Origin: Pyrinomonadaceae bacterium
GTDB lineage: Bacteria; Acidobacteriota; Blastocatellia; Pyrinomonadales; Pyrinomonadaceae
Assembly (NCBI GenBank): GCA_035644995.1
Contig: DASQNL010000652.1
Span: 1 to 15,898, forward strand
Direction of reading: 5' to 3'
DNA: 15,898 bases
In this document: in pieces, positions 1,861 to 13,664 of the stretch
How the letters are laid out: each line of letters starts with the position of its first letter
How positions within the stretch are numbered: position 1 is the first letter of the stretch
Notes under the pieces: generated by a model
Database searches by the model: none
The model's input: only the letters and a program-made list of their open reading frames with translations
Told to the model about the DNA's origin: nothing
Program-made: the position numbers and the translations under genes

Positions 1861-1910
1861 TAGCCGGGAAGTAAACAAAATAGAAATTTGTGGTTCCCTG
1901 TAGAGGTTGC

Positions 1911-2909
1911 ATGGCTGAGGGAAAGTTGCCCCGGCTGACCGAGGCGCACATACGTAATCTTGCCGTTGCGCCGAGCTTCGAGCGCGGCCAAGCCTACTAT
2001 CGTGACGGAGCAGTTCTAGACCCTATCTGCCAAGAGTCCAGCCTGCGCGCCCAGTGTGAAGGCTCAGACTATGAGCCGTATCAGGTCAGTGCGACGCTCG
2101 GCAAAGGCGGCATCGCAGAAACTTCCTGCACCTGTCCTTATGACTATGGCGGCATCTGCAAGCACATCGTCGCCCTGCTGCTGACATACATACACAAACC
2201 ACAGTCATTCCGTTTCATACCGCCACTCGGCAAGTTGCTCGCCAGGCGCAGCCAAGAGGAACTCATCACCCTCATCGGCGAGATGATCAAGATAGAGCCA
2301 GAATTGCTGTCGCTGGTCGAACTCTCTATCGCAACCGAAGAAGCCCGGCAAGACCAGCCGTTGGATGTGACAGCGTATCGCCGTCAGGCGCGGCGGGCGC
2401 TGCGACACGAGCACCTGCACATGGTAGAGAAAGAATTGCGAGCGTTACGAGAACTGGCCGCCCGTTCGGCTAAGGCTGACAACTGGCTGAACGCAGGCGC
2501 GATCTATCACGCGGTTCTCGACGAGACGGTTCGCGGCTACGAAGACCTATTGTGGGAGATGGATGAGGACGGCGAGATCGCCGTCCTGATTGACGAGTTC
2601 GCGCTGGGGTTGAGCCAGTCTCTCAAGAAAAGTAAGGCCGACGACCAGACGCGCCGGGCGTGGCTGGGGGCGCTCTTGGAGGCTGAACTGGCCGACATCA
2701 AAATGGGCGGAATTGACCTCGCGCCGAGCGCCCGCGAGGCGGTTTTAGAACACGCCGATGATGAGGAGTGGGGGTGGATTGAGAAGCGTCTCGAAACTGC
2801 TATCTCGAAGTGCCGCGACTGGGGACGGGAAGCGCTGGTGAGGTTTTTATCTGCGGGGCAGAAGCGGCACGGGCGCGCAGGTGAAAGCAAAACAGCCCGA
2901 AAGAGATGA
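1911..2909 (+). CDS. SWIM zinc-finger domain protein
   Basis: The CxCx(n)CxH SWIM signature is in TSCTCPYDYGGICKHIVALLL. The rest is helical and acidic. I prefer the ATG at 1911 (GAGG 1903-1906 upstream) to the GTG at 1890 listed in the ORF track. Confidence 0.8.
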   Translation: MAEGKLPRLTEAHIRNLAVAPSFERGQAYYRDGAVLDPICQESSLRAQCEGSDYEPYQVSATLGKGGIAETSCTCPYDYGGICKHIVALLLTYIHKPQSFRFIPPLGKLLARRSQEELITLIGEMIKIEPELLSLVELSIATEEARQDQPLDVTAYRRQARRALRHEHLHMVEKELRALRELAARSAKADNWLNAGAIYHAVLDETVRGYEDLLWEMDEDGEIAVLIDEFALGLSQSLKKSKADDQTRRAWLGALLEAELADIKMGGIDLAPSAREAVLEHADDEEWGWIEKRLETAISKCRDWGREALVRFLSAGQKRHGRAGESKTARKR

Positions 2910-2961: not shown

Positions 2962-3477
2962 ATGGAACAGAACGACCGACAGGAAACGCTAAAGGCAGCC
3001 CTTCATTATTTTTATCGGGATAACTCAAGGTCTGGCTCACATTGCCGCTACAGCCTGCAATATCACCTCGTCTGGATTCCGAAATACCGCCGAAGTTTCT
3101 TGGTTGGTGAGATAGCCGAGAGGCTGAAACAGATACTCAAAGAGATTGCCCATGATTATCGTATTCACATTATCGCCATGGAGGCGATGCCCGTCCACGT
3201 TCATATGCTGGTTGAAGCACCGCCCAAATATGCGCCTGCAAAGATCGTTCAACTTTTCAAAGGCATCTCGTCGAGGAGGCTCAGGCGGGAATTTCTCGAC
3301 CTGATAAAGAGGTACATCTGGAAAGAAGGAACTCTGTGGGCAATCGGCTACTACATCGGCAGCGTGAGCGATAAAGTCTCAACGGAACTTGTAAAGAAAT
3401 ACATCAGGAATCAGAAGTCGAAAGATGAAAAACTGAAACAACAAACAGAATATGTTCAGGCAAGCCTTTTCGGTTAA
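2962..3477 (+). CDS. tnpA: IS200/IS605-family Y1 (HUH) transposase TnpA
   Basis: Hallmark motifs are present: YSLQYHLVWIPKYRR, the HUH motif in PVHVHMLVEAPPKY, and a C-terminal helix with the catalytic Tyr region LWAIGYYIGSVSDKVSTELVKKYIRNQ. I placed the start at the first ATG (2962). The GTG at 2881 in the track would overlap the SWIM gene and has no SD. Confidence 0.85.
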   Translation: MEQNDRQETLKAALHYFYRDNSRSGSHCRYSLQYHLVWIPKYRRSFLVGEIAERLKQILKEIAHDYRIHIIAMEAMPVHVHMLVEAPPKYAPAKIVQLFKGISSRRLRREFLDLIKRYIWKEGTLWAIGYYIGSVSDKVSTELVKKYIRNQKSKDEKLKQQTEYVQASLFG

Positions 3478-3516: not shown

Positions 3517-3545
3517 TTGCTGAATGAATGCTCATTCAGTATGAT
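3517..3545 (+). promoter_or_regulatory. Candidate sigma70-type promoter of the fad operon with a palindromic operator in the spacer
   Basis: TTGCTG (3517-3522), a 17-nt spacer, then TATGAT (3540-3545). The spacer holds the perfect dyad CTGAATGA-ATGC-TCATTCAG (3520-3539). The site is 45 nt upstream of the fadN ATG, with RBS GGAGAAAGG at 3571-3579. The dyad could instead be a tnpA terminator or an IS200 end hairpin. Confidence 0.4.
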
Positions 3546-3589: not shown

Positions 3590-6001
3590 ATGCTTCGGAT
3601 CGAACGAGCGGCGGTGCTGGGCGCGGGTACGATGGGCGCGCAGATCGCCGCGCACCTGGCGAACGCCGGAATTCCCGTCCTCTTGCTGGACATCGCGCCG
3701 CGCGAACTCACGCCCGATGAACAGGCCAAAGGCTTGACCCTCGACGCGCGCGCCGTGCGCAACCGCATCGCGCAGGCCGGACTCGACGCGGCGAAGCGCG
3801 CGAAGCCCGCCGCCTTCTTCACCACGGACGCGGCTGCGCTCGTCGCGGTCGGGAATTTTGAAGACGACATGGCGCGTCTGAAAGATTGCGATCTGGTCAT
3901 CGAAGCGGTCGTCGAGAATCTGGAGATCAAGCGAAAGCTCTACGCGCAGGTTGAGCAGCACCGGCGCGCTTCGTCGGTCATCGCGTCGAACACGAGCGGC
4001 ATCCCCATCCGCGCCATCGCCGAAGGGTTCTCGGAAGACTTTCGCGCGCACTTCCTCGGCATACACTTCTTCAATCCGCCGCGCTACCTCCACTTGTGCG
4101 AACTGATCCCGACCGAATGGACGCGCGCGGAGGTGGCCTGCGCCGTCTTCGGCTTCCTCGATCAAAGACTCGGCAAGGGCGTCGTCATTGCGAAGGATCG
4201 CCCGAACTTCATCGCCAACCGCATCGGCACTTACGGCGCGCTCGTCTCGATCAAGACGATGCTCGAAGACGGCTACACCATCGAAGAAGTTGACCGGATG
4301 ACGGGGCAGGCCGTCGGTCGCCCGAAGTCGGCCACCTTCCGCACGTTCGACATCGTCGGCCTTGACGTGTTCGCGCACGTCGCGCGTAATCTCTACGAGG
4401 CCGTACCCGAAGACGAGGAGCGCGAGGTGTTCGTCGCGCCGGAATTTTTGCAAGGGATGATCGGGCGCGGCATCCTCGGCAACAAGACGAAAGGCGGCTT
4501 CTACCGCAAGCAAAAAGGCGAGGGCGAGAAACAGGAAATCTGGACGCTCGACCACGCCTCGCTCGAATATCGCCCCGCCGAGAAAGTTAAACTGCCCGCG
4601 CTGGAGATGGCGAAAAACGTGGAAGACGTGGGCGAGCGCATCAAGGCTCTCGTCTGGTCGCGGGATCGCGTCGGCGCGTTTTTGTGGAAGACCATCTCAC
4701 GCACTCTGCGCTACGCGGCGAACCGCATCCCGGAGATCGCGAACAACGTGGTGGACGTTGACCGCGCGATGCGCTGGGGCTTCAACTGGGAACTCGGCGT
4801 CTTCGAGACGTGGGACGCCATCGGTGTTGAGAAGTCGGTCGCGCGCATGCGCGAGGAAGGCGCGGCCGTTCCCGCGAACGTGGAGCGAATGCTTGAGGCG
4901 GGCGCGCATAGTTTTTACCGGACGGAGGGGGGCGCGCGTTTCTATTTCGATTTCGATAAACTCGACTACCAGCCGTTGAACGAACCGGCGGGCGTGCTCG
5001 TCTTGAAGTCGGTTAAGGATCGCACGGGCGTGGTGAAGAAGAACGCGGGCGCGTCTTTGATCGACATCGGCGACGGCGTGGCGTGTCTGGAATTTCATTC
5101 CAAGATGAACGCCATCGGCGGCGATACGATCCAGATGCTCAAGTGGTCGCTCGCCGAAGTGGAGCGAAACTTCGTCGGCTTAGTGGTCGGCAATCAGGCG
5201 CAGTATTTCTCGGTCGGCGCGAACCTGATGCTCATCCTTTTGGAAGCGCAGGAGGAGAACTGGGAAGACATCGATTTGATGGTGCGCGAGTTTCAACGCG
5301 CGACGATGAGTTTGCGCTATTCGTCGAAGCCGGTCGTCGTCGCGCCGTTCGGCCTCGTGCCCGGCGGCGGCTGCGAGGTGACGATTCACGGCGACCGCAT
5401 CCGCGCTTCGGCCGAGTTGTACATCGGTCTGGTCGAGGCGGGCGTCGGCGTCATCCCGGCGGGCGGCGGGACGAAGGAGATGCTCATGCGCGCGCTCGAT
5501 TCGATCCCGAAGGGGATGGACGACGCAGACCCGTTCCCGTTCGTCAAACGCGCCTTCGAGACGATTGCGCTGGCGCGTGTCGCCACGTCGGCCGGAGAGG
5601 CGCGGCAGTTGGGCTTCCTGCGCGACGAGGATTCCGTCACGATGAACCCGGATCGTCTCATCGCCGACGCCAAACAGGACGTGCTCGCGCTCGCGCGCGG
5701 CGGCTACACCGAACCGCAGCCGCGCACGGACATCCTCGCGCTCGGAAACCCCGCGCTCGCCACTCTGAAACTCGGCATCCACCAGATGAAACGCGGCGGC
5801 TTCATCTCCGACTACGACGCGCACATCGGCGAACGGCTCGCGCGCATCCTGACGGGCGGCGATCTCAACCACCCGACGCGCGTCAGCGAACAATACCTGC
5901 TCGACCTCGAACGCGAGGCGTTCCTCTCGCTCTGCGGCCAACGCAAGACGCAGGAGCGCATGGCGGCCATGCTCAAGACCGGCAAGCCGCTCAGGAATTA
6001 G
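3590..6001 (+). CDS. fadN: Bifunctional 3-hydroxyacyl-CoA dehydrogenase / enoyl-CoA hydratase (FadN-type, dehydrogenase domain first)
   Basis: The N-terminus carries a Rossmann motif, AAVLGAGTMGAQIAAHLANAGIPVLLLDI. The 3HCDH core is VIEAVVENLEIKRKLY...SNTSGIPI...HFFNPPRYLHLCELIP. The C-terminal half has a crotonase fold (LEFHSKMNAIGGD...VVAPFGLVPGGGCEV...GLVEAGVGVIPAGGGT). I took the start at ATG 3590 behind the GGAGAAAGG RBS rather than 3548. Confidence 0.93.
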   Translation: MLRIERAAVLGAGTMGAQIAAHLANAGIPVLLLDIAPRELTPDEQAKGLTLDARAVRNRIAQAGLDAAKRAKPAAFFTTDAAALVAVGNFEDDMARLKDCDLVIEAVVENLEIKRKLYAQVEQHRRASSVIASNTSGIPIRAIAEGFSEDFRAHFLGIHFFNPPRYLHLCELIPTEWTRAEVACAVFGFLDQRLGKGVVIAKDRPNFIANRIGTYGALVSIKTMLEDGYTIEEVDRMTGQAVGRPKSATFRTFDIVGLDVFAHVARNLYEAVPEDEEREVFVAPEFLQGMIGRGILGNKTKGGFYRKQKGEGEKQEIWTLDHASLEYRPAEKVKLPALEMAKNVEDVGERIKALVWSRDRVGAFLWKTISRTLRYAANRIPEIANNVVDVDRAMRWGFNWELGVFETWDAIGVEKSVARMREEGAAVPANVERMLEAGAHSFYRTEGGARFYFDFDKLDYQPLNEPAGVLVLKSVKDRTGVVKKNAGASLIDIGDGVACLEFHSKMNAIGGDTIQMLKWSLAEVERNFVGLVVGNQAQYFSVGANLMLILLEAQEENWEDIDLMVREFQRATMSLRYSSKPVVVAPFGLVPGGGCEVTIHGDRIRASAELYIGLVEAGVGVIPAGGGTKEMLMRALDSIPKGMDDADPFPFVKRAFETIALARVATSAGEARQLGFLRDEDSVTMNPDRLIADAKQDVLALARGGYTEPQPRTDILALGNPALATLKLGIHQMKRGGFISDYDAHIGERLARILTGGDLNHPTRVSEQYLLDLEREAFLSLCGQRKTQERMAAMLKTGKPLRN

Positions 6002-6082
6002 TTTCAGGTTTCAGGTTTCAGGTTTCAGGACTGACGGGTTCTTCCTGCTGTAACCTGAAACTTGAAACTCGAAACTTGAAAC
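6001..6082 (+). repeat. Heptamer-array hairpin element, copy 1: (GTTTCAG)x4, 26-nt loop, CTGAAAC TTGAAAC TCGAAAC TTGAAAC
   Basis: Read directly: left array 6001-6028 (four perfect units), loop 6029-6054 (GACTGACGGGTTCTTCCTGCTGTAAC), right array 6055-6082. The first G of the element is the G of the fadN TAG stop codon. Confidence 0.9.
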
Positions 6083-6087
6083 CCGCT

Positions 6088-6561
6088 ATGGATTACCCTG
6101 TGACGCCCGCCGTGAGGTTGCTGCGGGAGCGCAAAATAGAGTTTGAGCCGCACCTCTACGCTTACGAGGAGCGCGGCGGCACGCGCCACTCGGCCGCCGC
6201 GCTCGGCGTGGACGAGCACGCGGTCGTCAAGACGCTCGTGATGGAGACGGAGGCGCGCAAACCGCTCATCGTCCTGATGCACGGCGACCGCGAAGTCTCG
6301 ACGAAGAACCTGGCGCGCGTCATAGGCGCAAAGAGCGTGCAGCCGTGCGACCCGGCAAAGGCGCAGAAGCACACGGGCTACCTCGTCGGCGGCACAAGCC
6401 CCCTGGGGACGCGCACACGGCTGCCCGTCTACGTCGAGCGCACGATCTTCGCGTTGCCGAAGATTTACCTCAACGGCGGCAAGCGCGGCTTTCTCGTCGG
6501 GATTGAGCCGAACGTTTTGCATGAGTTATTGTCAGCCGAAGAAGTTGAAGTAGCCATCTAG
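6088..6561 (+). CDS. ybaK: Cys-tRNA(Pro)/Cys-tRNA(Cys) deacylase, YbaK/EbsC family, 157 aa
   Basis: The translation MDYPVTPAVRLLRERKIEFEPHLYAYEE...AVVKTLVME...LIVLMHGDREVSTKNLAR...HTGYLVGGTSPLG...PVYVERTIFALPKIYLNGGKRGFLVGIEP matches the YbaK family layout. The listed ORF from 5083 is read-through of the fadN 3' end in another frame. Confidence 0.87.
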   Translation: MDYPVTPAVRLLRERKIEFEPHLYAYEERGGTRHSAAALGVDEHAVVKTLVMETEARKPLIVLMHGDREVSTKNLARVIGAKSVQPCDPAKAQKHTGYLVGGTSPLGTRTRLPVYVERTIFALPKIYLNGGKRGFLVGIEPNVLHELLSAEEVEVAI

Positions 6562-6577
6562 GGACGCGAGGTGCGAG

Positions 6578-6835
6578 ATGCAGAATATTTACAAGCGCCC
6601 GCTGGTATTAGAACCGCAACCGGAAGGCGGCTACACGATTACCTGCCCGCTTTTGCCTGAATTGATTACCGAGGCTGACACGTTGGATGAGGTGATGACA
6701 AACGTCTCGGATGCTCTGGCGGCGGTAATCGAATCTTATGTAGACACGAAGCAGCCTTTGCCGGAGATTCTCAAACCGTTGAATCCCAACTCGCCGTTGT
6801 GGACGGAGACGCTCGTGTCTGTGAAAGCGGCATGA
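6578..6835 (+). CDS. hicB: HicB-family antitoxin (UPF0150-type, no obvious DNA-binding domain), 85 aa
   Basis: EPQPEGGYTITCPLLPELITEADTLDEVMTNVSDALAAVIESY is the typical HicB/UPF0150 RNase H-like fold signature. GAGGTG RBS lies upstream. Its TGA overlaps the ATG of the next gene (ATGA). Confidence 0.8.
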   Translation: MQNIYKRPLVLEPQPEGGYTITCPLLPELITEADTLDEVMTNVSDALAAVIESYVDTKQPLPEILKPLNPNSPLWTETLVSVKAA

Positions 6836-7044
6836 ACTACAGGGAAGTGGCGGCGAAACTGCGTGCGCTCGGTTGCGTAGAGATTCCGCGCCGGAGCGGC
6901 GGGTCACACCGGAAATGGCACAACCCGCGGAAGCAAAAGATCGCGCCCGTGCCGGATTGGGGTAACAAAAGCCTGAAACTCGGAACCATCCGCGCTATCG
7001 TGCGGCAACCGGATTTAGATTGGGAGGCATTCAAAAATGCCTGA
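6832..7044 (+). CDS. hicA: HicA-family mRNA interferase toxin, 70 aa
   Basis: The translation MNYREVAAKLRALGCVEIPRRSGGSHRKWHNP...PVPDWGNKSLKLGTIRAIVRQ carries the HicA GSH motif and dsRBD-like layout. I placed the start at ATG 6832, overlapping the hicB stop by 4 nt, not at 6799. Confidence 0.85.
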   Translation: MNYREVAAKLRALGCVEIPRRSGGSHRKWHNPRKQKIAPVPDWGNKSLKLGTIRAIVRQPDLDWEAFKNA

Positions 7045-7082
7045 GCAGATAGTTTGAGGAAGTTTTACCGGAAGGAAGAATT

Positions 7083-8267
7083 ATGAGAGACGCAGTGATC
7101 GTATCGGCGGTGAGGACGGCGGTGGGGAAAGCGCCGAAGGGGACTTTGCGCGACACGCGGCCGGACGAGATGGGCGCGGCCGTGATTCAGGAAGCGTTGC
7201 GGCGCGCCGAGGGCGTCGAGTTGAACGAGGTCGAAGACGTGATCATGGGCTGCGCGATGCCGGAGGCGGAGCAGGGCATGAACGTGGCGCGGGCGGCGGC
7301 GATTCGCGCGGGGCTGCCGGTGGAAACTTCGGCGATGACGATCAACCGCTTCTGCTCGTCGGGGCTGCAATCAATCGCGATTGCGGCCGACCGCATCAGA
7401 ACCGGCGCGGCCGACGTGATCGTGGCAGGGGGCTTGGAGACGATGTCGCTCATCCCGATGGGCGGCCACACCATCAGGCCGAACCCTTACCTCGTCGAAC
7501 ACTACCCGGACTTTTATCTGAACATGGGACTCGCCACCGAGAACGTCGCGCGCAAGTATGAAGTGTCGCGCGCGGAGCAGGACGAGTTCTCCTATCAGTC
7601 GCACAGCCGCGCGGCGGCGGCGCAGGACGCGGGCAAGTTCGACGACGAGATCGTGCCGCTCAAAATCGTGTTTGAAGAGTTGGACGAGCGCGGGCGTAAA
7701 CAGCGGCGCGAGGCGACGTTCGAGCGCGACGAGGGCGTGAGGCGCGACACTTCGGCGGAGAGCCTGTCGAAGTTGCGGCCGGCGTTTCACGCGCAGGGGA
7801 CGATCACGGCGGGCAACGCGTCGCAGATGTCGGACGGGGCGGCGGCCGTGGTCGTGATGTCCGGCGAGCGAGCGCGCGCTTTGGGCTTGAGGCTGATGGC
7901 GCGCTTCGTGGCCTACGCCACCGCCGGATGCCCGCCCGAAGAGATGGGCATCGGGCCGGTCTACGCGATTCCGAAGGTCTTGAAGATCGCGGGGCTGACG
8001 CAAGATCAAATCGACGTGATCGAACTCAACGAAGCCTTCGCCGCGCAATCGCTCGCCGTCATCCGCACGCTCTCGCTCGACCCGGAAAAAGTGAACGTCA
8101 ACGGCGGAGCCATCGCGCTCGGCCACCCGCTCGGCTGCACGGGCGCGAAGCTGACCGCGACCGCCCTGCGCGAACTCGCACGCCGCGGCGGCCGCTACGC
8201 GATGGTGACGATGTGCGTCGGCGGCGGCATGGGCGCGGCGGGCATTTTCGAGAGGCTCGAAAATTAG
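7083..8267 (+). CDS. fadA: Acetyl-CoA C-acyltransferase (3-ketoacyl-CoA thiolase), 394 aa
   Basis: The N-terminus [20 protein letters not shown] is classic. The active-site Cys region is [13 protein letters not shown]-terminal motifs are [25 protein letters not shown] and [17 protein letters not shown] is GGAAGGAAG. Confidence 0.95.
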
Positions 8268-8347
8268 TTTCAGGTTTCGAGTTTCAAGTTTCAGGACTGA
8301 GGTTCCGAGGCTTTCAAACTTGAAACTTGAAACCTGAAACTTGAAAC
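8267..8347 (+). repeat. Heptamer-array hairpin element, copy 2: GTTTCAG GTTTCGA GTTTCAA GTTTCAG, 25-nt loop, TTGAAAC TTGAAAC CTGAAAC TTGAAAC
   Basis: Read directly: left array 8267-8294, loop 8295-8319 (GACTGAGGTTCCGAGGCTTTCAAAC), right array 8320-8347. The first G is the G of the fadA TAG stop codon. Confidence 0.9.
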
Positions 8348-8373
8348 TTTATTCCGACTTAAAGGAGCAAATT

Positions 8374-10152
8374 ATGTCAGCCGTGGTCGAAGAGAAAAAG
8401 ATAATCGCGGGCGGCAGCTTCCTCATCGAGGAGCGCACGCCGGAAGAGGTGTTCACGCCGGAGGATTTCACGGACGAGCACCGCATGATCGCGGAGACGA
8501 CGCGCGAGTTCATGGACAATGAAGTGCGCCCGGCGACGGACGAGTTGGAGCGGCACAACTGGCAACTCGCGCGCGAGTTGATCCGCAAGTCGGCGGAGTT
8601 GGGGATGGTCGGCGTCAACATTCCCGAAGAATACGGCGGCCTCGGACTCGACCAGACGAGCGGCGCGATTGTCGGCGAACTGCTCGGACGCTCGGCCAGT
8701 TTTGCGACGACGCTCGGCGCGCAGAGCGGCATCGGCCTGACGCCCATCCTCTACTTCGGCACGGAAGCGGCGAAGCAAAAGTACTTGCCGCGCATCGCTT
8801 CGGGCGAGATGGTGTCGGCTTACGCGTTGACGGAAGCCGGGTCGGGTTCGGACGCGATGGCGGCCAAAGCCACGGCGCGCCTCAGCGCGGACGGCACGCA
8901 CTACATCTTGAACGGCGAGAAGATGTGGATCACGAACGGCGGCTTCGCCGACGTGTTCATCGTCTTCGCCAAGCTCGACGGCGACAAGTTCAGCGGCTTC
9001 ATCGTCGAACGGCAGGAAGGACTGACGAACGGCGCGGACGAGCACAAGATGGGCATCAAAGGATCGAGCACGACCGCGCTCATCCTGTCGGATGCGAAAA
9101 CGCCGGTGGAGAACCTGCTTGGCGAGGAAGGACGCGGCGCGAAGATCGCGTTCAATATTTTGAACATCGGCCGCTTCAAGCTGGGCGCGATGTGTAGCGG
9201 CGGGATGAAGTTGATGCTGCACGAGGCGGTGCGCTACGCGAACGAGCGGCAACAGTTCGGCCGCCCGATCTCTTCGTTCGGCGCGATCAAGTCGAAGCTG
9301 GCGGAGATGGCGATCAGGACGTGGGTGGGCGAGTCGATGGTCTACCGGACGCTCGGCCTCATCGAAACGGCGACGAGCGGCGAGACGGAGGCGGAGGCCA
9401 AACTGCGCGGCATCGAGGAGTATGCGGCGGAGTGTTCGATCATCAAGGTCGCGCTCTCCGAGTATTGCGATTTCGTCGCCGACGAGATGGTGCAGATTTA
9501 CGGCGGCTACGGCTACTCGGCCGACTATCCGGCCGAGCGCGCCTACCGCGACTCGCGCATCAACCGCATCTTCGAGGGCACGAACGAGATCAATCGCATG
9601 TTGATTCCCGGTCGCATGATGAAAAGCGCAATGTCGGGGCGGCTCGCGCTCCTGCCCGCCGCGCAGAAGTTGATGGACGAAGTGTTGTCGCCGTCGCTCG
9701 CGTCGTTTGAAGAGGACGAGGGCGTGCTCGCCGCCGAGATGAAACTCGCGCGGAACGCGAAGAAGGTCGCGCTGATGACTCTGGGCACGGCGGCGCAGAA
9801 GTACATGGCGAAACTCGCCGACGAGCAGGAGATTCTGATGGGCGTGGCGGACATCACGATGGACGTGTACGCGATGGAATCGGCCATCCTGCGCGCGCAG
9901 AAACTCGCGGCGAAGCGGGGCGAAACGGCCGCCGCGCGTTACATCGAGATGGTGCAGGTCTTCTGCAACGACGCCGTGCAACGCATCGAAGCGCGCGCCA
10001 AGAACACGCTCGCCGCCATGAGCGAAGGCGACGAACTGCGGACGCTCCTCGCCGCCCTGCGCCGCTTCACCAAGCAGACCCCGGTCAACACGGTCGCCGC
10101 CCGTCAGGCGATAGCCGACGTGCTGATCAAGGCGAACAAGTACGCCTACTGA
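8374..10152 (+). CDS. fadE: Acyl-CoA dehydrogenase, long form with C-terminal extension (FadE-type), ~592 aa
   Basis: ACAD N-terminal, middle and C-terminal domains are recognisable (YALTEAGSGSDA, MWITNGGFADVFIVFAK, QFGRPISSFGAIKSKLAEM, QIYGGYGYSADYPAERAYRDSRINRIFEGTNEINR). I took the start at ATG 8374 behind AAAGGAG (8361-8367). The TTG at 8341 lies inside the heptamer array. Confidence 0.93.
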   Translation: MSAVVEEKKIIAGGSFLIEERTPEEVFTPEDFTDEHRMIAETTREFMDNEVRPATDELERHNWQLARELIRKSAELGMVGVNIPEEYGGLGLDQTSGAIVGELLGRSASFATTLGAQSGIGLTPILYFGTEAAKQKYLPRIASGEMVSAYALTEAGSGSDAMAAKATARLSADGTHYILNGEKMWITNGGFADVFIVFAKLDGDKFSGFIVERQEGLTNGADEHKMGIKGSSTTALILSDAKTPVENLLGEEGRGAKIAFNILNIGRFKLGAMCSGGMKLMLHEAVRYANERQQFGRPISSFGAIKSKLAEMAIRTWVGESMVYRTLGLIETATSGETEAEAKLRGIEEYAAECSIIKVALSEYCDFVADEMVQIYGGYGYSADYPAERAYRDSRINRIFEGTNEINRMLIPGRMMKSAMSGRLALLPAAQKLMDEVLSPSLASFEEDEGVLAAEMKLARNAKKVALMTLGTAAQKYMAKLADEQEILMGVADITMDVYAMESAILRAQKLAAKRGETAAARYIEMVQVFCNDAVQRIEARAKNTLAAMSEGDELRTLLAALRRFTKQTPVNTVAARQAIADVLIKANKYAY

Positions 10153-10156
10153 AAAG

Positions 10157-10191
10157 CGGAAGACAGGAGACAGAAAACAGGAGTCAGAATG
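10157..10191 (+). repeat. Left heptamer array flanking the four-helix-bundle gene: CGGAAGA CAGGAGA CAGAAAA CAGGAGT CAGAATG
   Basis: Period-7 pattern read directly. The fourth unit provides the AGGAG Shine-Dalgarno and the fifth unit contains the ATG (10189). Confidence 0.8.
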
Positions 10192-10557
10192 GAACGTTTG
10201 CCTGCGCGTACTTTTCAAGACTTGATCGTGTGGCAGAAAGCGCACGAGTTTGTTTTGGGGGCGTACCACCTGAGTAAAAACTTTCCGCGAGAAGAGCTTT
10301 ATGGCCTGACTTCGCAATTCAGGCGTGCCGCCGTTTCGATACCGGCGAATATCGCGGAGGGTTTCAAGAAGAAAGGCTCTAGTGATAAGGCGCGGTTCAT
10401 GAACATCGCACAAGGCTCTTTAGAAGAATGTCGCTATTACCTGATCCTGACAAACGATCTTGGCTACGGCGATACAAGACAACACATGCAGCAACTTGAA
10501 GAGGTCAGCAAACTTCTCGCGAGTTACATCTCCGCGATTAAAACTTCTGACTTCTGA
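10189..10557 (+). CDS. Four-helix-bundle protein (23S rRNA intervening-sequence protein family; Avd-like), 122 aa
   Basis: Strong family signature: FQDLIVWQKAHEFVLGAYHLSKNFPREELYGLTSQFRRAAVSIPANIAEGFKKK...FMNIAQGSLEECRYYLILTNDLGY. G+C is lower than in the neighbours. Confidence 0.9.
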   Translation: MERLPARTFQDLIVWQKAHEFVLGAYHLSKNFPREELYGLTSQFRRAAVSIPANIAEGFKKKGSSDKARFMNIAQGSLEECRYYLILTNDLGYGDTRQHMQQLEEVSKLLASYISAIKTSDF

Positions 10558-10577
10558 CTTCTGTATCCTGTATTCGC
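10543..10577 (+). repeat. Right heptamer array flanking the four-helix-bundle gene: ACTTCTG ACTTCTG ACTTCTG TATCCTG TATTCGC
   Basis: Read directly. Its reverse complement (GCGAATA CAGGATA CAGAAGT CAGAAGT CAGAAGT) is an imperfect match to the left array. It encodes the last codons (T S D F stop) of the four-helix-bundle gene and ends 1 nt before the MBL ATG. Confidence 0.8.
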
Positions 10578-10578
10578 C

Positions 10579-11544
10579 ATGCGCATCATCCCCATCTCGC
10601 TGCCGACGCCGTTTTACATCGGGCCGGTCAACGTCTACTTGATCGCGGAAGACCCGGTGACATTGATTGACACGGGGCCGAAGACGCCGGAAGCGTTAGA
10701 GGCTCTGCGCGAGGGGTTGAGGCGGGCGCGCTTTCGCGTCTTAGACGTAAAGCGCATCGTCCTGACGCACGCCCACGAGGATCATTGCGGGCTGGCGAAA
10801 CGCCTGCGCGACGAGGCGAAGGATGCGGAAGTGCTCGTCCACGGGTGGGAGACGGGGCATCGCCAGGGGCGTCTCGAATATGAGGAGCACCGCGCGCTGC
10901 TGGTGCGCGCCGGGGTGCCGGGCGAAGAAATCGAGGGGATGCGGCGCATGTATGAGGGCGTGCGCCGGTATGCGGACGCGCTCGAAGACGAGGAACACAA
11001 GGAACTGACGGACAACTCGGAGTTGGAGTTTGAGACCGGCGCGCTGCGCGTGGTGCATACGCCGGGACACACGCCGGGGTCGTGCTCGTTCGTGCGCGAG
11101 GCCGACCGGACGATCATCGCCGGCGACTGCGTGTTGAAACGCGTGACGCCGAACCCGGTGCTCTCGCCCGACCCGGTAGACCCTTCGCGCAGATTTCCGT
11201 CGCTCGCCGAATACCTCGTGAGCCTGGCGCGTTTGCGCGCGTTCGCGCCGACGCTCGTTCACGGCGGGCACGGCGAGGCGGTGGAGGATTTCGAGGAGTT
11301 GTTCACGCGCTACCTGCGGGCGATCCGGGAGCGGCAAGCGGAGGTGGCGCGCCTCGTGCCGAAAACGGGCGCGAGCGCGTGGGAGGTGGCGCGCGAGATG
11401 TTTCCGGGAACGGAGGACGTGCATCGCTTCCTCGCCGTGTCGGAGGTGGTGGCGCATCTCGATCTGGCGCACGCGGAGAATAAACTCGCGTTGGAGATGA
11501 CGGCCGACGGGCGGGAGATTTATCGTAAGTCGGCGGGCGGCTGA
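10579..11544 (+). CDS. MBL-fold metallo-hydrolase, 321 aa
   Basis: The HxHxDH motif is in LTHAHEDHCG. Downstream are VHTPGHTPGS and a GD motif. The N-terminus GPVNVYLI...TLIDTG is typical of beta-lactamase-fold hydrolases. No clear SD, so the start is somewhat uncertain. Confidence 0.85.
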   Translation: MRIIPISLPTPFYIGPVNVYLIAEDPVTLIDTGPKTPEALEALREGLRRARFRVLDVKRIVLTHAHEDHCGLAKRLRDEAKDAEVLVHGWETGHRQGRLEYEEHRALLVRAGVPGEEIEGMRRMYEGVRRYADALEDEEHKELTDNSELEFETGALRVVHTPGHTPGSCSFVREADRTIIAGDCVLKRVTPNPVLSPDPVDPSRRFPSLAEYLVSLARLRAFAPTLVHGGHGEAVEDFEELFTRYLRAIRERQAEVARLVPKTGASAWEVAREMFPGTEDVHRFLAVSEVVAHLDLAHAENKLALEMTADGREIYRKSAGG

Positions 11545-11613
11545 AGAGTGTGCGCGGGCGCGCGATGCCGCCGCAGGCTCAGATCGAAGCGGCGCAAACG
11601 CGAGTTGAAATTA

Positions 11614-11658
11614 AACCGGCCGCCGTTCGTCAGGTTGAATGACGGACGGCGGCCGGTT
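11614..11658. terminator. Bidirectional intrinsic-terminator-like hairpin between convergent genes
   Basis: AACCGGCCGCCGTTCGTCA (11614-11632), 7-nt loop GGTTGAA, then TGACGGACGGCGGCCGGTT (11640-11658). This is a 19-bp stem with one T/G position. On the minus strand it is followed by TTTAATTTC. On the plus strand it is followed by CGGTTT, a weaker U-tract. Confidence 0.6.
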
Positions 11659-11729
11659 CGGTTTAGCGGAAAAGCCCTGCGGCGTTCCGGCGGATGAGAA
11701 TGCGGGCGGGCGTTAGCGCGCCGCCGCGT

Positions 11730-13664
11730 CTATTGGTTGCCCTTGGCAACGCGGCTTTTGCTGCGCGTCGCCTGAGCCTTGGTGGCGCTGACGGGCGGAG
11801 CCGGAACCGCCGTCAGGGCTTCGACGTTGACGAAGAAGCGGAACGAGCCGTTCTGTTCCACGCCAAGCAGGAACTGCAAGTTGACGCTCGCGCCCGCCGG
11901 AAGCTGATTAGCCAGCGTGACGGTACCGGCCGAGAGCGTGGAGTTGAAGCCGCCGCCGTTCGGTTGGCCGAGCGCGTCCGTTTCAAGCGTGGTGCCCTGG
12001 ATAGTGGTCTGCGGGCTGGCGTTGTCGGAGCAGAGGTGCGGCGTGCCGTTCTCACTCTGGCAGGTCGCAGTGATAGACGAAGAAGTGATCGCCCGCAGGT
12101 CGGCCGTGCCCAACAGCGAGGGGAAGGTGGTGATGTCCACGATGCGGAAGCGCAGGCGGGTCACGCTCGCGCCCGTGTTGTTGGTGAAGCGGCGGCGGAT
12201 CGAGAGCGTGCCCGTCGAAGTGGGAGACGAGCCGAAGCCCGAACCCGCATTCGTGCGACGCTCGAAGCGGCACGCGCTCGGCAGCGCCGGGTTGACGGCG
12301 ATGCCGGTGCATTGCGTGTCCACGAGCGACGCCTTGATCTCGGCGTTGCGCTGCGTGGGCGACGAGAGATTTTCGGGGCCGGGCGCGCCGAGCCGCTGGC
12401 ACCGGAAGTTAATCGTCGAGCTGCACAAGTTCGTGCCGTTGATGTCGGCGGTCTGGAAGTCCGTCTCGTTGTTATTGGTGTCGAGCGGCATGCCGCTCTG
12501 CGCGTTGCGGAAGAGGCTGAAGTTGACGCCGGGGTTCCCACTCAGGACAGCCGAGAACGGGGGGTAGCCCGTGCCTTCGACGTAAATGGGGTTGGTCTCG
12601 GCGGTCGAGCCGACGGCGTCGAGGCGGTTGGCGAGCGTGAAACTCGCCTGAACCGACGTGTTGAAAATGGCGATCCCGGCGTTCGCGGGGATGTTCTCGT
12701 TCAGGGTGTTGTCGCCCGTGGCCGTCGTGCCGTTGCCCGCCGGGTACGCGCTGCCGCTGAAAGAGCCGGTGCATGCGCCGCCGCCGTTATTGACGGCGAG
12801 ATAGTGGCCGCGCGCCGGGATGTTCGTGCCGTTCGGGATAGTGAACAACACGTTGCCGTTCGAGTGCGCGACGGCAAAGCCGGTCGTGCCGGCTTCGAGC
12901 GACTGCACCGTGAATGTGCTGTTCGACGGGTTGTAAATCTCGACGAACTCGTCGCACGTGCCGGTCGGCCCGAAGGTGCGGAACTCGCTGATCAGAAGCA
13001 TCGTTCCGGTGAGCGAATTGCGCGGGGTCGGAGCGGCGGCGGTGAAATCCAGATTGTTGTTATCGGTGTCCACGCTGCCGCCGCCGTTACGAATATCGGC
13101 GGTGGTGGTCGAGGGGGCGGGCGCGGGGCCTGCCCCTTCAAAGCAGTTGGCGGTCGAGCCGTAGCCGACGAAGTCTCTGACCTGTGAGGGAGTGGCCGGG
13201 CAGCCGGCCGCCGTCAGCGTGACCGGGGTGGTGGTGTTGGCGAGAAAAACTTTGCCCGCCGTCGCGCTCATGGCTATCGTGCCGGTCGTGTTCGGCGTCG
13301 GGAGCGCGAGCGTGCCGTTCGCGCTGAATGACTCGGCGACCAGATAATACTGTCCCGGTTGGAGCGTGAAGTTCGTCAGCGGTGTGATCGCGCTCGCGGC
13401 GTTGGCGATTGTCGTGCCCGTGGCGGAGCTGTATTGCACCGAGAGGCCGTTCAGCGAAACGGGGGTCGTGCCCCGGTTGTAGATTTCGATGAAGTCGTTT
13501 TTGTAAGTGGAGCAGTTGGCCGTGCCGCACCCCGCCCCGCCGTAAATCTGGCTGATGACGAGATCGGGGCTGCCCTGTGCATAGGCAACTTGCGAAGCCG
13601 AGAACGCGAAGCCCAGCGCGAGCGTCGCGAGAGCAAAAGTATAGAATCTACGAAGGGGTTGCAT
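11730..13664 (-). CDS. Secreted protein with two lamin-tail-domain (LTD) modules and an uncharacterised C-terminal domain, 644 aa
   Basis: A signal peptide ends ..ASQVAYAQG. LTD 1 (LVISQIYGGAGCG...YKNDFIEIYNRGTTPVSLNGLSVQYSSATG...DFVGYGSTANCFEGAGPAP...DTDNNNLDF) resembles the N-terminal module of ExeM/NucH-type extracellular nucleases. LTD 2 reads LLISEFRTFGP...DEFVEIYNPSN...DTNNNETDF. AGGAGA RBS is on the minus strand (13672-13679). Confidence 0.85.
   Translation of the reverse strand: MQPLRRFYTFALATLALGFAFSASQVAYAQGSPDLVISQIYGGAGCGTANCSTYKNDFIEIYNRGTTPVSLNGLSVQYSSATGTTIANAASAITPLTNFTLQPGQYYLVAESFSANGTLALPTPNTTGTIAMSATAGKVFLANTTTPVTLTAAGCPATPSQVRDFVGYGSTANCFEGAGPAPAPSTTTADIRNGGGSVDTDNNNLDFTAAAPTPRNSLTGTMLLISEFRTFGPTGTCDEFVEIYNPSNSTFTVQSLEAGTTGFAVAHSNGNVLFTIPNGTNIPARGHYLAVNNGGGACTGSFSGSAYPAGNGTTATGDNTLNENIPANAGIAIFNTSVQASFTLANRLDAVGSTAETNPIYVEGTGYPPFSAVLSGNPGVNFSLFRNAQSGMPLDTNNNETDFQTADINGTNLCSSTINFRCQRLGAPGPENLSSPTQRNAEIKASLVDTQCTGIAVNPALPSACRFERRTNAGSGFGSSPTSTGTLSIRRRFTNNTGASVTRLRFRIVDITTFPSLLGTADLRAITSSSITATCQSENGTPHLCSDNASPQTTIQGTTLETDALGQPNGGGFNSTLSAGTVTLANQLPAGASVNLQFLLGVEQNGSFRFFVNVEALTAVPAPPVSATKAQATRSKSRVAKGNQ

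What the first reader, a model, noticed from the sequence alone, without database searches (positions are those of the whole stretch)
10149..10581. Four-helix-bundle (23S rRNA-IVS/Avd-like) gene nested between inverted heptamer arrays: an IVS-like 'gene in a hairpin loop' cassette inside an mRNA operon
Seen in sequence:
- The 369-bp ORF is bracketed by two 35-nt period-7 arrays. The left is CGGAAGA CAGGAGA CAGAAAA CAGGAGT CAGAATG (10157-10191). The right is ACTTCTG x3 TATCCTG TATTCGC (10543-10577).
- The arrays are imperfect reverse complements of each other. Unit by unit, 4 to 7 of 7 positions can pair if G:U is allowed.
- The arrays supply the gene's own SD (AGGAG), its ATG, its last five codons and its stop.
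- The fadE TGA sits in a further CTGAAAA unit at 10149-10155, and the next gene's ATG follows 1 nt after the right array.

Established knowledge: this protein family was named because members are encoded in the loops of 23S rRNA intervening sequences, which RNase III excises by cutting the flanking long stem. The DGR accessory protein Avd is a relative.

Inference: the same stem-plus-ORF architecture is reproduced here outside rRNA, between fadE and an MBL hydrolase. Two neighbouring gaps carry 'empty' heptamer hairpins. This suggests a compact selfish or mobile cassette, or an RNase III-processed module, whose stem could control its own translation and segment the polycistronic fad mRNA.
Basis: partly seen in the sequence, partly recalled or inferred. 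Interest (0 to 1): 0.8.

Follow-up and report, generated by a model that had tools for sequence, protein, structure and literature searches.

The report
Gene nested in heptamer-repeat hairpin
A small gene for a ring-forming four-helix-bundle protein sits between two mirror-image runs of five 7-base repeats inside a fatty-acid operon; the same gene-in-a-hairpin package occurs in more than ten bacterial phyla and, according to the literature, inside Coxiella ribosomal RNA, so two long-unexplained features (these proteins and heptamer repeats) appear to be linked.

Summary
ORF 10189-10557 (PF05635/TIGR02436 four-helix-bundle protein) lies between two 35-nt period-7 arrays, 10157-10191 and 10543-10577. 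They pair in the minimum-energy and centroid folds. Chance expectation for such arrays is 0.

It is one copy of a widespread cassette.
- In 80 genome loci from over 10 phyla, homologs 67-88% identical carry CAGRANN arrays upstream and NNTYCTG arrays downstream, spaced 7 nt.
- A second clade with no BLASTP similarity to the first shows the same layout with another core, GATTNNN / NNNAATC.
- In both clades, on both sides, the commonest array length is five units. Solved family members are homopentamers.
- Inverted arrays bracket 32% and 24% of these genes, against 0.7% of neighbouring ORFs.
- The gene is co-oriented with its neighbours and no promoter-like site was found in the window. Host stop and start codons lie a few nt from the stem base. 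dN/dS is 0.03-0.11.

The Coxiella 23S rRNA intervening sequence is described with the same protein family, similar heptamers ending CAGAATG, and a stem cut by RNase III. None of about 160 cassettes here lies in 23S-like sequence.

Best reading: an intervening-sequence-type hairpin cassette carried within an mRNA. RNase III cleavage, translational control and mobility are untested. No recent movement was found.

The parts
8374..10152 (+). Upstream host gene: FadE-type acyl-CoA dehydrogenase. Its stop codon TGA (10150-10152) lies 4 nt before the left array.
   Evidence: Pfam Acyl-CoA_dh_N/M/1 plus Acyl-CoA-dh_C; called gene in L001; sequence.
10157..10191 (+). Left heptamer array, five units of type CAGRANN: CGGAAGA CAGGAGA CAGAAAA CAGGAGT CAGAATG. 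It contains the Shine-Dalgarno sequence (AGGAG) and the ATG of the four-helix-bundle gene, and forms the 5' arm of the stem.
   Evidence: chance expectation 0. It pairs with the right array. The same array type is found upstream of 61 of 80 homologs.
10189..10557 (+). Four-helix-bundle protein gene, 122 aa (family names: 23S rRNA intervening-sequence protein, S23p, TIGR02436; distant Avd relative).
   Evidence: PF05635 E 6.5e-37; TIGR02436 119.5 bits; PDB 2gsc E 2.5e-19; dN/dS 0.03-0.11 among orthologs; GC 0.49-0.52 against about 0.65 in the flanks.
10543..10577 (+). Right heptamer array, five units of type NNTYCTG: ACTTCTG x3, TATCCTG, TATTCGC. It is the imperfect reverse complement of the left array, encodes the last four codons plus the stop, and forms the 3' arm of the stem.
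   Evidence: The same array type is found downstream of 74 of 80 homologs.
10579..11544 (+). Downstream host gene: MBL-fold hydrolase. Its ATG lies 1 nt after the right array, and I see no Shine-Dalgarno sequence in the bases before it.
   Evidence: Pfam Lactamase_B; sequence.
6001..6082 (+). 'Empty' heptamer hairpin: (TTTCAGG)x4, a 22-nt loop, then (CCTGAAA-like)x4. It fills the gap between the fadB stop (6001) and the ybaK-like gene (6088). The heptamer differs from that of the cassette.
   Evidence: fold -45.3 kcal/mol on the sense strand against -35.4 on the antisense strand.
8266..8349 (+). 'Empty' heptamer hairpin of the same repeat family as 6001-6082 (the loops share GGACTGA..GG..TTC). 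It lies between the thiolase stop (8267) and fadE.
   Evidence: fold -41.6 kcal/mol on the sense strand against -35.0 on the antisense strand; only sub-threshold generic hairpin hits in Rfam.

Best explanation
Segment 10157-10577 (421 bp) is one copy of a widespread, probably ancient cassette. It consists of a promoterless gene for a four-helix-bundle protein (PF05635/TIGR02436, 'S23p'). The solved members of this family are homopentamers. The two ends of the gene are embedded in two mutually complementary arrays of five heptamers, CAGRANN upstream and NNTYCTG downstream.

By the published description it is the same kind of element as the S23p-encoding intervening sequence (IVS) of 23S rRNA. 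Here it is lodged in an intergenic gap of a beta-oxidation operon rather than in an rRNA helix.

Proposed mechanism:
- The cassette is transcribed by read-through from the host operon.
- The two arrays zip into an imperfect stem of about 31-37 bp that closes the insert off as a hairpin.
- This stem places the fadE stop codon (4 nt before the stem) next to the MBL start codon (1 nt after it).
- It buries the cassette's own Shine-Dalgarno sequence and AUG against its own 3' end.
- It offers a long double-stranded RNA target of the kind RNase III cuts in the rRNA version.
- Because both arms are 7-nt periodic, the stem can re-pair in shifted registers. It therefore tolerates gain or loss of whole units.

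Shown here: the anatomy, the complementarity, its conservation and left/right co-variation, co-orientation with host genes, tight abutment to the host stop and start codons, and purifying selection on the protein.

Inferred: formation of the stem in vivo, RNase III cleavage, translational control, and any coupling between fadE and MBL.
For: (1) Pairing. The arrays pair in the minimum-energy and centroid folds and in all six distinct orthologous cassettes (seven loci folded), with 30-41 bp. In the window all three stems are more stable on the transcribed strand.

(2) Family-wide conservation.
- In 78 loci, CAGRA occurs 3.2 times per locus upstream and TYCTG 3.9 times per locus downstream. The opposite polarity occurs about 0.2 times per locus.
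- Spacing is exactly 7 nt in 161 of 185 and 211 of 234 cases.
- The cognate left-right duplex averages -44.0 kcal/mol, against -37.9 for non-cognate pairs (p 8e-5) and -24.9 for shuffled arms.
- Unit types co-vary between the arms: cosine 0.53 against 0.35 +/- 0.03, with 0 of 2000 permutations reaching the observed value.

(3) Enrichment. Inverted period-7 arrays flank 25 of 79 clade-1 genes and 17 of 71 clade-2 genes, against 3 of 439 neighbouring ORFs (p 2e-19 and 4e-13).

(4) Expression context.
- The gene is co-oriented with its upstream neighbour in 72 of 78 loci and with its downstream neighbour in 65 of 78.
- No promoter-like site was found in 5800-11800.
- The host stop codon lies a median 3.5 nt before the first unit. 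The host start codon lies a median 8.5 nt after the last unit.

(5) The protein is functional. dN/dS is 0.03-0.11 while dS is 0.4-2.0, yet the arrays persist.

(6) Published homolog. The Coxiella IVS is 428 nt and carries an S23p ORF. It has AGAAGA followed by GACAGAT x3 and GACAGAA, then TG, which reads ...CAGATGA CAGAATG. Its 28-bp terminal inverted-repeat stem is cut mid-stem by RNase III, as mapped by RACE (PMC4990558).
Against: - There are no RNA data for this organism.
- Across the family the stem is no more stable on the sense strand than on the antisense strand: -44.0 against -42.8 kcal/mol, p 0.13. The empty hairpins show the same lack of asymmetry. A DNA-level role is therefore not excluded.
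- A plain stem does not explain why each protein clade keeps its own 4-5-nt core (CAGRA or GATT).
- A plain stem also does not explain why the modal array length is exactly five units.
- In clade 2 the Shine-Dalgarno sequence often lies outside the array, judging by eye from the flanks printed. Hiding the ribosome-binding site therefore cannot be the general rule.
- In Coxiella the authors conclude that S23p is probably not expressed.
Confidence: 0.6

Rival explanations
1. The arrays are binding sites for the encoded protein. The pentameric ring reads five heptamers, one protomer per unit, through the conserved 4-5-nt core, with 2-3 variable spacer bases. This would resemble the way the TRAP ring reads its triplet repeats. 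Binding would compete with the left-right stem and so autoregulate the cassette. It might also act on matching heptamer hairpins elsewhere in the genome. This reading can coexist with the hairpin model.
For: - The modal array length is five units on both sides in both clades: 30 of 78 and 32 of 78 in clade 1, 25 of 67 and 22 of 67 in clade 2.
- Solved family members are homopentamers. PDB 2gsc and 2rld each have 5 chains, and the pentamer of Lin 2006 is cited in PMC4990558.
- The cores are specific to each clade and fixed in orientation relative to the gene: CAGRA/TYCTG against GATT/AATC, with little cross-use. The two clades have no BLASTP similarity to each other.
- In the DGR cryo-EM structure, pentameric Avd holds an RNA stem-loop with all five protomers. 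The same residues from different protomers hold flipped-out bases.
- A Nostoc study infers a heptamer-repeat binding partner that is 'yet to be identified'.
Against: - There is no binding evidence of any kind.
- Five units equal 35 bp, which could simply be a preferred stem length.
- The clade-1 core contains the Shine-Dalgarno sequence, which alone could explain its conservation.
- Shared descent of gene and arrays could explain the clade-specific cores.
- The window's empty hairpins use a heptamer that matches neither core.
Confidence: 0.25
2. The arrays act on DNA. They would be terminal inverted repeats of a non-autonomous mobile cassette, in effect a MITE carrying a passenger gene. Alternatively they would be portable 35-bp homology arms that let the gene be copied, by recombination or gene conversion, into any hairpin built from the same heptamers.
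For: - The cassette sits in different slots in different lineages. These include fadE-MBL, fadB-thiolase, a histidine kinase-response regulator junction, and upstream of aspartate kinase.
- The fadE-MBL slot holds a different paralog, on the opposite strand, in L009 and L027.
- Gene-free hairpins built of cassette-type units exist in L020, L022, L032, L050, L053, L064 and L077. L064 holds one filled and one empty hairpin, each immediately upstream of an ATGTCCA... start codon; the filled one precedes a response-regulator-like ORF, and the second is only presumed to be a paralogous junction.
- L039 (Deinococcota) and L051 (Deltaproteobacteria) share an extra terminal inverted repeat, GTAACTACT, and 82% nucleotide identity.
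- Stem stability is equal on both strands.
- The gene's GC content is consistently about 7 points below that of the host.
Against: - No transposase or recombinase travels with the cassette, and no target-site duplication was found.
- Identical proteins are always found in one context.
- The site is stable across dS of about 1-2.
- GC content tracks the host with r = 0.90.
- No copy was found in viral contigs.
- The loops of the empty hairpins are not convincing gene remnants.
Confidence: 0.2
3. The association is incidental. These genomes are simply rich in heptamer tandem repeats (STRR-like), which pile up in any intergenic gap, including the gaps around a small gene.
For: Period 7 dominates tandem repeats in these loci, with 418 of about 1000 TRF rows. 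Many intergenic gaps in the related fad operons carry heptamer hairpins with unrelated units.
Against: - Only 0.7% of 439 neighbouring ORFs are bracketed by inverted arrays, against 24-32% of four-helix-bundle genes.
- Of 41 inverted array pairs spaced 250-500 nt apart, 39 enclose a four-helix-bundle gene.
- The same unit core and polarity travel with the gene across phyla and across a GC range of 0.34-0.68.
Confidence: 0.03
4. The gene is the Avd accessory protein of a diversity-generating retroelement (DGR).
For: Weak similarity to Avd models: bAvd E 1e-4 and the DivGenRetAVD model at 28.8 bits.
Against: The Avd equivalog score is far below its cut-off of 80. No reverse transcriptase was seen among the ORFs of the 15.9-kb window that were scanned, nor among the precomputed Pfam families of the called genes, and TRF listed no long repeat. 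A template/variable repeat pair was not specifically searched for. The gene is wedged between fadE and an MBL hydrolase.
Confidence: 0.02

Closest known systems
S23p-encoding intervening sequence (IVS) of 23S rRNA (Coxiella burnetii; also Leptospira, Brucella, Xanthomonas as cited in PMC4990558)
   Same: - Same protein family.
- Nearly the same size, 428 nt against 421 nt here.
- The ORF is in the sense orientation within a host transcript.
- Tandem heptamers sit immediately 5' of the ATG and end in ...CAGAATG.
- Terminal inverted repeats form a long stem, 28 bp in Coxiella and about 31 bp here.
- Unit number varies between lineages.
(searches compared)
   Different: - The host RNA is a protein-coding operon, between fadE and an MBL hydrolase, not helix 45 of 23S rRNA. 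There is no 23S (LSU) rRNA hit in the window or in any of 170 loci.
- The protein here is under strong purifying selection. In Coxiella it is judged to be decaying and unexpressed.
- RNase III cleavage is demonstrated for Coxiella and untested here.
Avd, the accessory protein of diversity-generating retroelements
   Same: Distantly homologous four-helix-bundle fold that forms a pentameric barrel. Avd binds an RNA stem-loop with all five protomers, and the 3' codons of avd base-pair with downstream RNA.
   Different: No reverse transcriptase was found among the scanned ORFs. The Avd model scores below its cut-off. DGRs have not been described with heptamer arrays, to my knowledge.
Heptamer tandem repeats of cyanobacteria (STRR), Beggiatoaceae and Bacteroidetes
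   Same: Intergenic arrays of 7-nt units close to start codons, with a patchy cross-phylum distribution. A regulatory or translational role has been proposed, and the binding partner is unknown (PMC4679880; bioRxiv 2022.06.06.494920). The STRR literature (Mazel et al. 1990) is cited from my own knowledge.
   Different: Neither of the two heptamer-repeat papers I read links the repeats to this protein family: a term search of PMC4679880 found no mention of '23S', 'four helix' or 'intervening', and the Nostoc preprint names no binding partner. Here the arrays come as inverted pairs that bracket one specific gene family.
REP/REPIN-RAYT systems and transcribed hairpin MITEs (Correia, ERIC) - named from my own knowledge, not tested here
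   Same: Short palindromic repeat elements in transcribed intergenic gaps. RAYT genes are flanked by their cognate REP sequences, and gene-free copies are dispersed around the genome. Correia hairpins are RNase III substrates.
   Different: The enclosed gene is not a transposase or any recognisable enzyme. The arms are built of periodic 7-nt units. The window's IS200-type Y1 transposase (2962-3477) has no heptamer arrays next to it.
TRAP and other ring-shaped RNA-binding proteins that read repeats - named from my own knowledge
   Same: An oligomeric ring, with the number of repeats matching the number of subunits and a conserved core plus variable spacer. This is an analogy for the five-unit, pentamer coincidence.
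   Different: The fold is unrelated. No binding has been shown for this family apart from Avd.

Membership tests
PF05635 / TIGR02436 four-helix-bundle protein (23S rRNA IVS protein, S23p) | Profile match above the curated cut-off over the full domain. | tested here: met
   PF05635 126.4 bits against a cut-off of 33.8, covering residues 10-111. TIGR02436 119.5 bits against a cut-off of 24. PDB 2gsc E 2.5e-19.
PF05635 / TIGR02436 four-helix-bundle protein (23S rRNA IVS protein, S23p) | Homopentameric toroid of four-helix bundles. | not tested
   Inferred from homologs only (2gsc and 2rld each have 5 chains; Lin 2006 as cited). No structure was predicted here.
23S rRNA intervening sequence (IVS) | Inserted in a 23S rRNA helix (9, 25 or 45), replacing its loop. 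| tested here: not met
   The cassette is flanked by fadE and an MBL hydrolase. Rfam gives no 23S (LSU) rRNA hit in the window. No 23S-like sequence occurs in any of 170 loci.
23S rRNA intervening sequence (IVS) | Terminal inverted repeats that form a long stem enclosing the element. | tested here: met
   About 31 bp between 10156-10190 and 10543-10577 in the minimum-energy and centroid folds; arm duplex -42.3 kcal/mol.
23S rRNA intervening sequence (IVS) | Sense-strand S23p ORF preceded by tandem heptamers (Coxiella type). | tested here: met
   Five CAGRANN units ending in CAGAATG, compared with the published AGAAGA, GACAGAT x3, GACAGAA, TG.
23S rRNA intervening sequence (IVS) | Excision by RNase III cleavage within the stem. 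| not testable with these tools
   Requires RNA end mapping with and without RNase III.
DGR accessory protein Avd | Match to the Avd equivalog model above its cut-off. | tested here: not met
   NF033474 28.8 bits against a cut-off of 80. PF22296 23.2 bits against a cut-off of 40.
DGR accessory protein Avd | Adjacent reverse transcriptase and template/variable repeat pair. | tested here: not met
   No reverse-transcriptase domain among the ORFs scanned or the called genes with precomputed Pfam families. TRF listed no long repeat, but a template/variable repeat pair was not specifically searched for.
MITE / TIR transposable element | Terminal inverted repeats. | tested here: met
   The arrays are inverted repeats. 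L039 and L051 add GTAACTACT termini.
MITE / TIR transposable element | Target-site duplication and evidence of recent transposition (identical copies at different sites). | tested here: not met
   No duplication is visible at the window junctions. The exact proteins P0110 and P0019, and the 83-93% homologs, each occupy a single context.
MITE / TIR transposable element | Many copies per genome. | not testable with these tools
   The source is a 17.7-kb metagenome contig, and whole genomes could not be fetched. Some loci hold two copies, for example L057 and L079.
Heptamer tandem repeats (STRR-like) | At least 3 tandem 7-nt units in intergenic DNA. | tested here: met
   TRF period-7 rows at 10161-10187, 10543-10563, 6001-6029, 6052-6082, 8266-8293 and 8316-8349.

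The most novel reading that the evidence does not exclude
The four-helix-bundle pentamers are the missing partners of bacterial heptamer repeats. Each protomer would read one 7-nt unit through a clade-specific core: CAGRA in the window's clade, GATT in the second clade. An array of five units would then equal one ring.

Each gene would sit inside its own pair of cognate arrays and regulate itself by competing with the left-right stem. A genome's set of paralogs would control the matching gene-free heptamer hairpins in its operons. The classical S23p-encoding rRNA intervening sequences would simply be such cassettes that landed in rRNA loops.
Probability: 0.2. Interest if true: 0.9.

Novelty: new variant of a known kind. 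Interest (0 to 1): 0.72.

Why it matters
Two old puzzles meet in this cassette.
- Proteins of the '23S rRNA intervening sequence' family have had no known function since the 1990s.
- Tandem heptamer repeats in cyanobacteria, Beggiatoaceae and other bacteria have had no known partner or mechanism.

The evidence here shows that the gene and inverted five-unit heptamer arrays form one conserved package across more than ten phyla and two protein clades that share no BLASTP similarity. The rRNA intervening sequence then looks like a special case of this package rather than its defining home, because none of about 160 cassettes examined lies in 23S-like sequence.

This turns 'function unknown' into concrete experiments:
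- Does the stem form, and is it cut by RNase III?
- Does it let a 420-nt insert sit inside an operon without uncoupling the flanking genes?
- Does the pentamer bind five heptamers?

It also cautions annotators that the family name '23S rRNA-intervening sequence protein' is misleading for most members.

Tried and rejected
- **Strand asymmetry.** I compared stem stability on the two strands to separate an RNA role from a DNA role. The three stems in the window favour the sense strand. Family-wide there is no significant difference, for cassettes (p 0.13; G:U pairs 295 against 259) or for empty hairpins. The test is inconclusive.
- **Empty hairpins as deletion remnants.** I asked whether empty hairpins with cassette-type units are internal-deletion derivatives. 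Some keep ...CAGAATG plus a few codon-like bases, but their loops do not convincingly match the ends of the gene. I do not claim this.
- **Phage carriage.** No relative of the gene was found in viral contigs.
- **Defence role.** No PADLOC hit.
- **Known RNA family.** Rfam gives only sub-threshold generic hairpin (miRNA-like) hits on the empty hairpins and nothing on the cassette.
- **Own promoter or terminator.** No promoter-like site was found. Terminator-like sites are not above the shuffle expectation, and none lies at the array boundaries.
- **Recent mobility and unit-number variation.** Contigs carrying identical proteins all share one context and have identical arrays.
- **Recent horizontal transfer as the explanation for 70% identity across phyla.** GC content tracks the host (r 0.90), and nucleotide identities between phyla are mostly 0.75 or less. 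This looks like strong protein constraint with only occasional transfer.

Full report
**1.

The window is a metagenome contig of a Pyrinomonadaceae bacterium (Acidobacteriota). The same sequence occurs in three independent assemblies.

Gene order on the + strand:
- TPR protein and SWIM-domain protein
- IS200-type transposase
- fadB (3590-6001)
- a heptamer hairpin (6001-6082)
- ybaK-like gene and hicB/hicA
- thiolase (7083-8267)
- a heptamer hairpin (8266-8349)
- fadE-type acyl-CoA dehydrogenase (8374-10152)
- the 122-aa ORF (10189-10557)
- MBL-fold hydrolase (10579-11544)

One detail needs correcting: the right array covers four codons plus the stop, not five. A three-unit CAGRANN pattern with up to one mismatch hits only these two arrays, where dinucleotide shuffles give 0.00 hits.

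The ORF is a clear PF05635/TIGR02436 four-helix-bundle protein. Its closest solved structure is Xanthomonas XCC0516, PDB 2gsc.

The arrays pair with each other in the minimum-energy and centroid RNA folds and under DNA parameters. The arm duplex is -42.3 kcal/mol.

**2. This is not a local oddity**

A genome scan returned 80 loci encoding proteins 67-88% identical to the window protein (best tblastn segment). They come from Acidobacteriota, Nostocales and other Cyanobacteria, Verrucomicrobiota, Nitrospirota, Deltaproteobacteria, Bacteroidota, Planctomycetes, Chloroflexi, Firmicutes, Deinococcota and others.

Printing the flanks shows the same picture almost everywhere. Upstream are runs of CAGGAGT, CAGAAGT, CAGAATT or CAGGAGC, usually ending ...CAGGAGTCAGAATG at the start codon. 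Downstream are ATTCTG ACTCCTG ACTTCTG... runs that begin inside the last codons.

Quantified over 78 loci:
- CAGRA occurs 3.2 times per locus upstream, and TYCTG 3.9 times per locus downstream.
- The opposite polarity occurs about 0.2 times per locus.
- Spacing is exactly 7 nt in 161 of 185 and 211 of 234 cases.
- The cognate left-right duplex averages -44.0 kcal/mol, against -37.9 for non-cognate pairs (p 8e-5) and -24.9 for shuffled arms.

The variable positions of the units co-vary between the two arms of a locus. The cosine is 0.53 against 0.35 +/- 0.03, and none of 2000 permutations reaches the observed value.

**3. A second clade shows the same layout**

Distant paralogs that happened to lie in the fetched loci were also bracketed by inverted heptamer arrays, but with other units. 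I therefore scanned metagenomes with two of them.

This second clade has no BLASTP-detectable similarity to the window protein. It is still PF05635 above the curated cut-off. It shows GATTNNN arrays upstream and NNNAATC arrays downstream in 34 loci, and the reverse polarity in 2. Cross-use of the clade-1 core is rare.

With a strict period-7 detector, inverted arrays bracket 25 of 79 clade-1 genes and 17 of 71 clade-2 genes. Only 3 of 439 other ORFs in the same loci are bracketed in this way (p 2e-19 and 4e-13).

Among all inverted heptamer-array pairs, the spacing is bimodal:
- 36 pairs are 'empty' hairpins with a gap of 80 nt or less.
- 41 pairs are spaced 250-500 nt, and 39 of those enclose a four-helix-bundle gene.

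**4. Five units**

In both clades and on both sides, the commonest array length is five heptamers:
- clade 1: 30 of 78 on the left and 32 of 78 on the right
- clade 2: 25 of 67 on the left and 22 of 67 on the right

Random windows give one or two units. The window has five and five.

Solved family members crystallise with five chains and are described as homopentamers. The relative Avd is a pentameric barrel that grips an RNA stem-loop with all five protomers. I treat this match as a lead, not a finding.

**5. Context and evolution**

*Placement within operons*
- The gene is co-oriented with its upstream neighbour in 72 of 78 loci and with its downstream neighbour in 65 of 78.
- The host stop codon lies a median 3.5 nt before the first unit. 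The host start codon lies a median 8.5 nt after the last unit.
- In the window these gaps are 4 nt and 1 nt.
- The window has no promoter-like site from 5800 to 11800.

The cassette is therefore a promoterless insert that fills an intergenic gap in an operon almost exactly.

*Stability at this site*
- Homologs 83-93% identical all sit at the same ybaK-thiolase-fadE-[gene]-MBL-LTD site.
- Their arrays differ by whole 7- or 14-nt units.
- In every ortholog the arrays still pair, with 30-41 bp.
- dN/dS is 0.03-0.11 while dS is 0.4-2.0.

So the protein is functional. The arrays persist over a span in which neutral sequence would have been randomised.

*More distant Pyrinomonadaceae*
- They carry the gene between fadB and the thiolase gene instead.
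- Their fadE-MBL gap holds unrelated heptamer hairpins. In L009 and L027 it holds a different paralog on the opposite strand.

*Composition and mobility*
- The gene's GC tracks the host (r 0.90) but stays about 7 points lower.
- Identical proteins are always found in one context, with identical arrays.
- Movement therefore happens, but rarely.

**6. Link to the known element**

Warrier et al. (PMC4990558) describe the Coxiella burnetii 23S rRNA intervening sequence as follows:
- It is a 428-nt element in helix 45 with a sense-strand S23p ORF.
- It has a 28-bp stem formed by terminal inverted repeats.
- Its 5' region consists of AGAAGA, three tandem GACAGAT heptamers and one GACAGAA, followed by TG.

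Read in the window's register, that 5' region is ...CAGATGA CAGATGA CAGATGA CAGAATG. This is the same unit family and the same final unit as here. Repeat number varies between Coxiella strains.

The window cassette is 421 nt. I could not align the Coxiella sequence myself; this rests on the paper's text.

Conversely, none of about 160 cassettes examined lies in 23S-like sequence. The rRNA location looks like the exception.

**7. Mechanism**

The best-supported reading is an intervening-sequence-type hairpin cassette carried within an mRNA. Its proposed steps are:
- read-through transcription from the host operon
- a register-tolerant stem of about 31-37 bp
- the stem closes off the insert and juxtaposes the host stop and start codons
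- in clade 1 it hides the cassette's own Shine-Dalgarno sequence and AUG
- it is a plausible RNase III substrate

Shown here: anatomy, conservation, co-variation, context and selection. Inferred: folding in vivo, cleavage, and translational effects.

Strand asymmetry does not settle RNA against DNA. The three stems in the window favour the sense strand, but the family as a whole does not.

Two rivals can coexist with this reading:
- The arrays are binding sites for the pentamer. This alone would explain the clade-specific cores and the five-unit mode.
- The arrays are DNA-level inverted repeats or homology arms for rare relocation.

Incidental association with genome-wide heptamer repeats, and a DGR Avd role, are both disfavoured.

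**8. Novelty**

Already in the literature:
- S23p-encoding rRNA intervening sequences
- the direct heptamer repeats in Coxiella
- heptamer repeats in cyanobacteria and Beggiatoaceae

Within the held library I found no description of any of the following:
- this protein family being generally nested between inverted heptamer arrays in mRNA operons
- the clade-specific cores
- the five-unit mode

I therefore rate the finding as a new variant of a known kind. The library is incomplete, so prior description elsewhere cannot be excluded.

Noticed in passing
window 2962-3477 (+), hairpin about 3517-3540: An IS200/IS605-family Y1 transposase ORF (NF033573, 146 bits) lies between the SWIM-domain gene and fadB. 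A short palindrome (CTGAATGA ATGC TCATTCAG) lies downstream of it. It has no heptamer arrays nearby, so it seems unconnected to the hairpins.
   Followed up: partly
window 6088-7044 (+): A ybaK-like Cys-tRNA(Pro) deacylase gene and a hicB/hicA toxin-antitoxin pair sit between fadB and the thiolase gene. In other Pyrinomonadaceae this same slot holds the four-helix-bundle cassette. The fad operon gaps appear to be repeated landing sites for foreign genes.
   Followed up: partly
window 1890-2909 (+): The SWIM zinc-finger protein gives weak PADLOC hits to PDC-S62 (E 4e-11) and DpdE (E 8e-8). This may indicate a defence-related neighbour.
   Followed up: no
L014 1698-2485; L006 5760-6410; L008 7633-8340; L171/L179 about 4100-4690: An extra gene of about 175-190 aa (MTASEVFEAVTGSGSSD..., with a faint AbiEii/nucleotidyltransferase hit) is inserted between the thiolase gene and fadE in several relatives. 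In L014 it has heptamer hairpins, (GTAACAA)n/(TTGTTAC)n, on both sides. The four-helix-bundle gene is therefore not the only gene found next to such hairpins.
   Followed up: partly
L009 9506-10230, L027 9132-9940, L010 9500-9826: In L009 and L027 the fadE-MBL gap holds a 159-aa PF05635 paralog on the minus strand. It is flanked by (GAGATCT)n arrays, and another such array lies inside the ORF. L010 appears to have only a plus-strand remnant of the C-terminal extension of that gene, judging by eye from the sequence. That would suggest inversion plus deletion between inverted arrays.
   Followed up: partly
L005 5882-6005, L006 4025-4180, L009 5876-6005, L010 5889-6005, L027 5435-5580: In the cassettes between fadB and the thiolase gene, the left array is separated from the gene's ATG by an insert of 60-90 nt. 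In several of them the insert contains a second copy of the fadB 3' end (..GCCGCTTxGAAxxTAA). In L027 the old start survives as CAGAATGGAACGGTAA. This looks like a duplication or recombination scar and is unexplained.
   Followed up: no
L039 and L051, cassette termini: Cassettes assigned to Deinococcota and to Deltaproteobacteria share 82% nucleotide identity. They also share an extra terminal inverted repeat outside the heptamers, GTAACTACTCAGGAG...CTCCTGA(G/A)TAGTTAC. This is the best candidate for a recent cross-phylum transfer, or else a binning error.
   Followed up: partly
L064 6001-6369 and 11991-12092: L064 holds a full cassette immediately upstream of a response-regulator-like ORF (ATGTCCAAACTT...). 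It also holds an 'empty' hairpin with the same unit type and a retained ...CAGAATG, which likewise precedes ATGTCCA. This is possibly a filled/empty pair at paralogous two-component junctions; the second junction was not checked.
   Followed up: partly
L017, L050 upstream junctions: In some Acidobacteria the upstream histidine-kinase ORF has no stop codon before the array. It appears to read through the heptamers into the cassette in another frame.
   Followed up: no
Related Pyrinomonadaceae loci L005-L010, L014, L027: Many of the intergenic gaps inspected in the fad operon carry a heptamer-array hairpin with a unit specific to that locus: ACTTTGN/CAAAGAC, GGGTAAG/CTTACCC, GCAAAGA, CGATTGC/GCAATCG. 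This points to a general heptamer-hairpin feature of operons in this family.
   Followed up: partly
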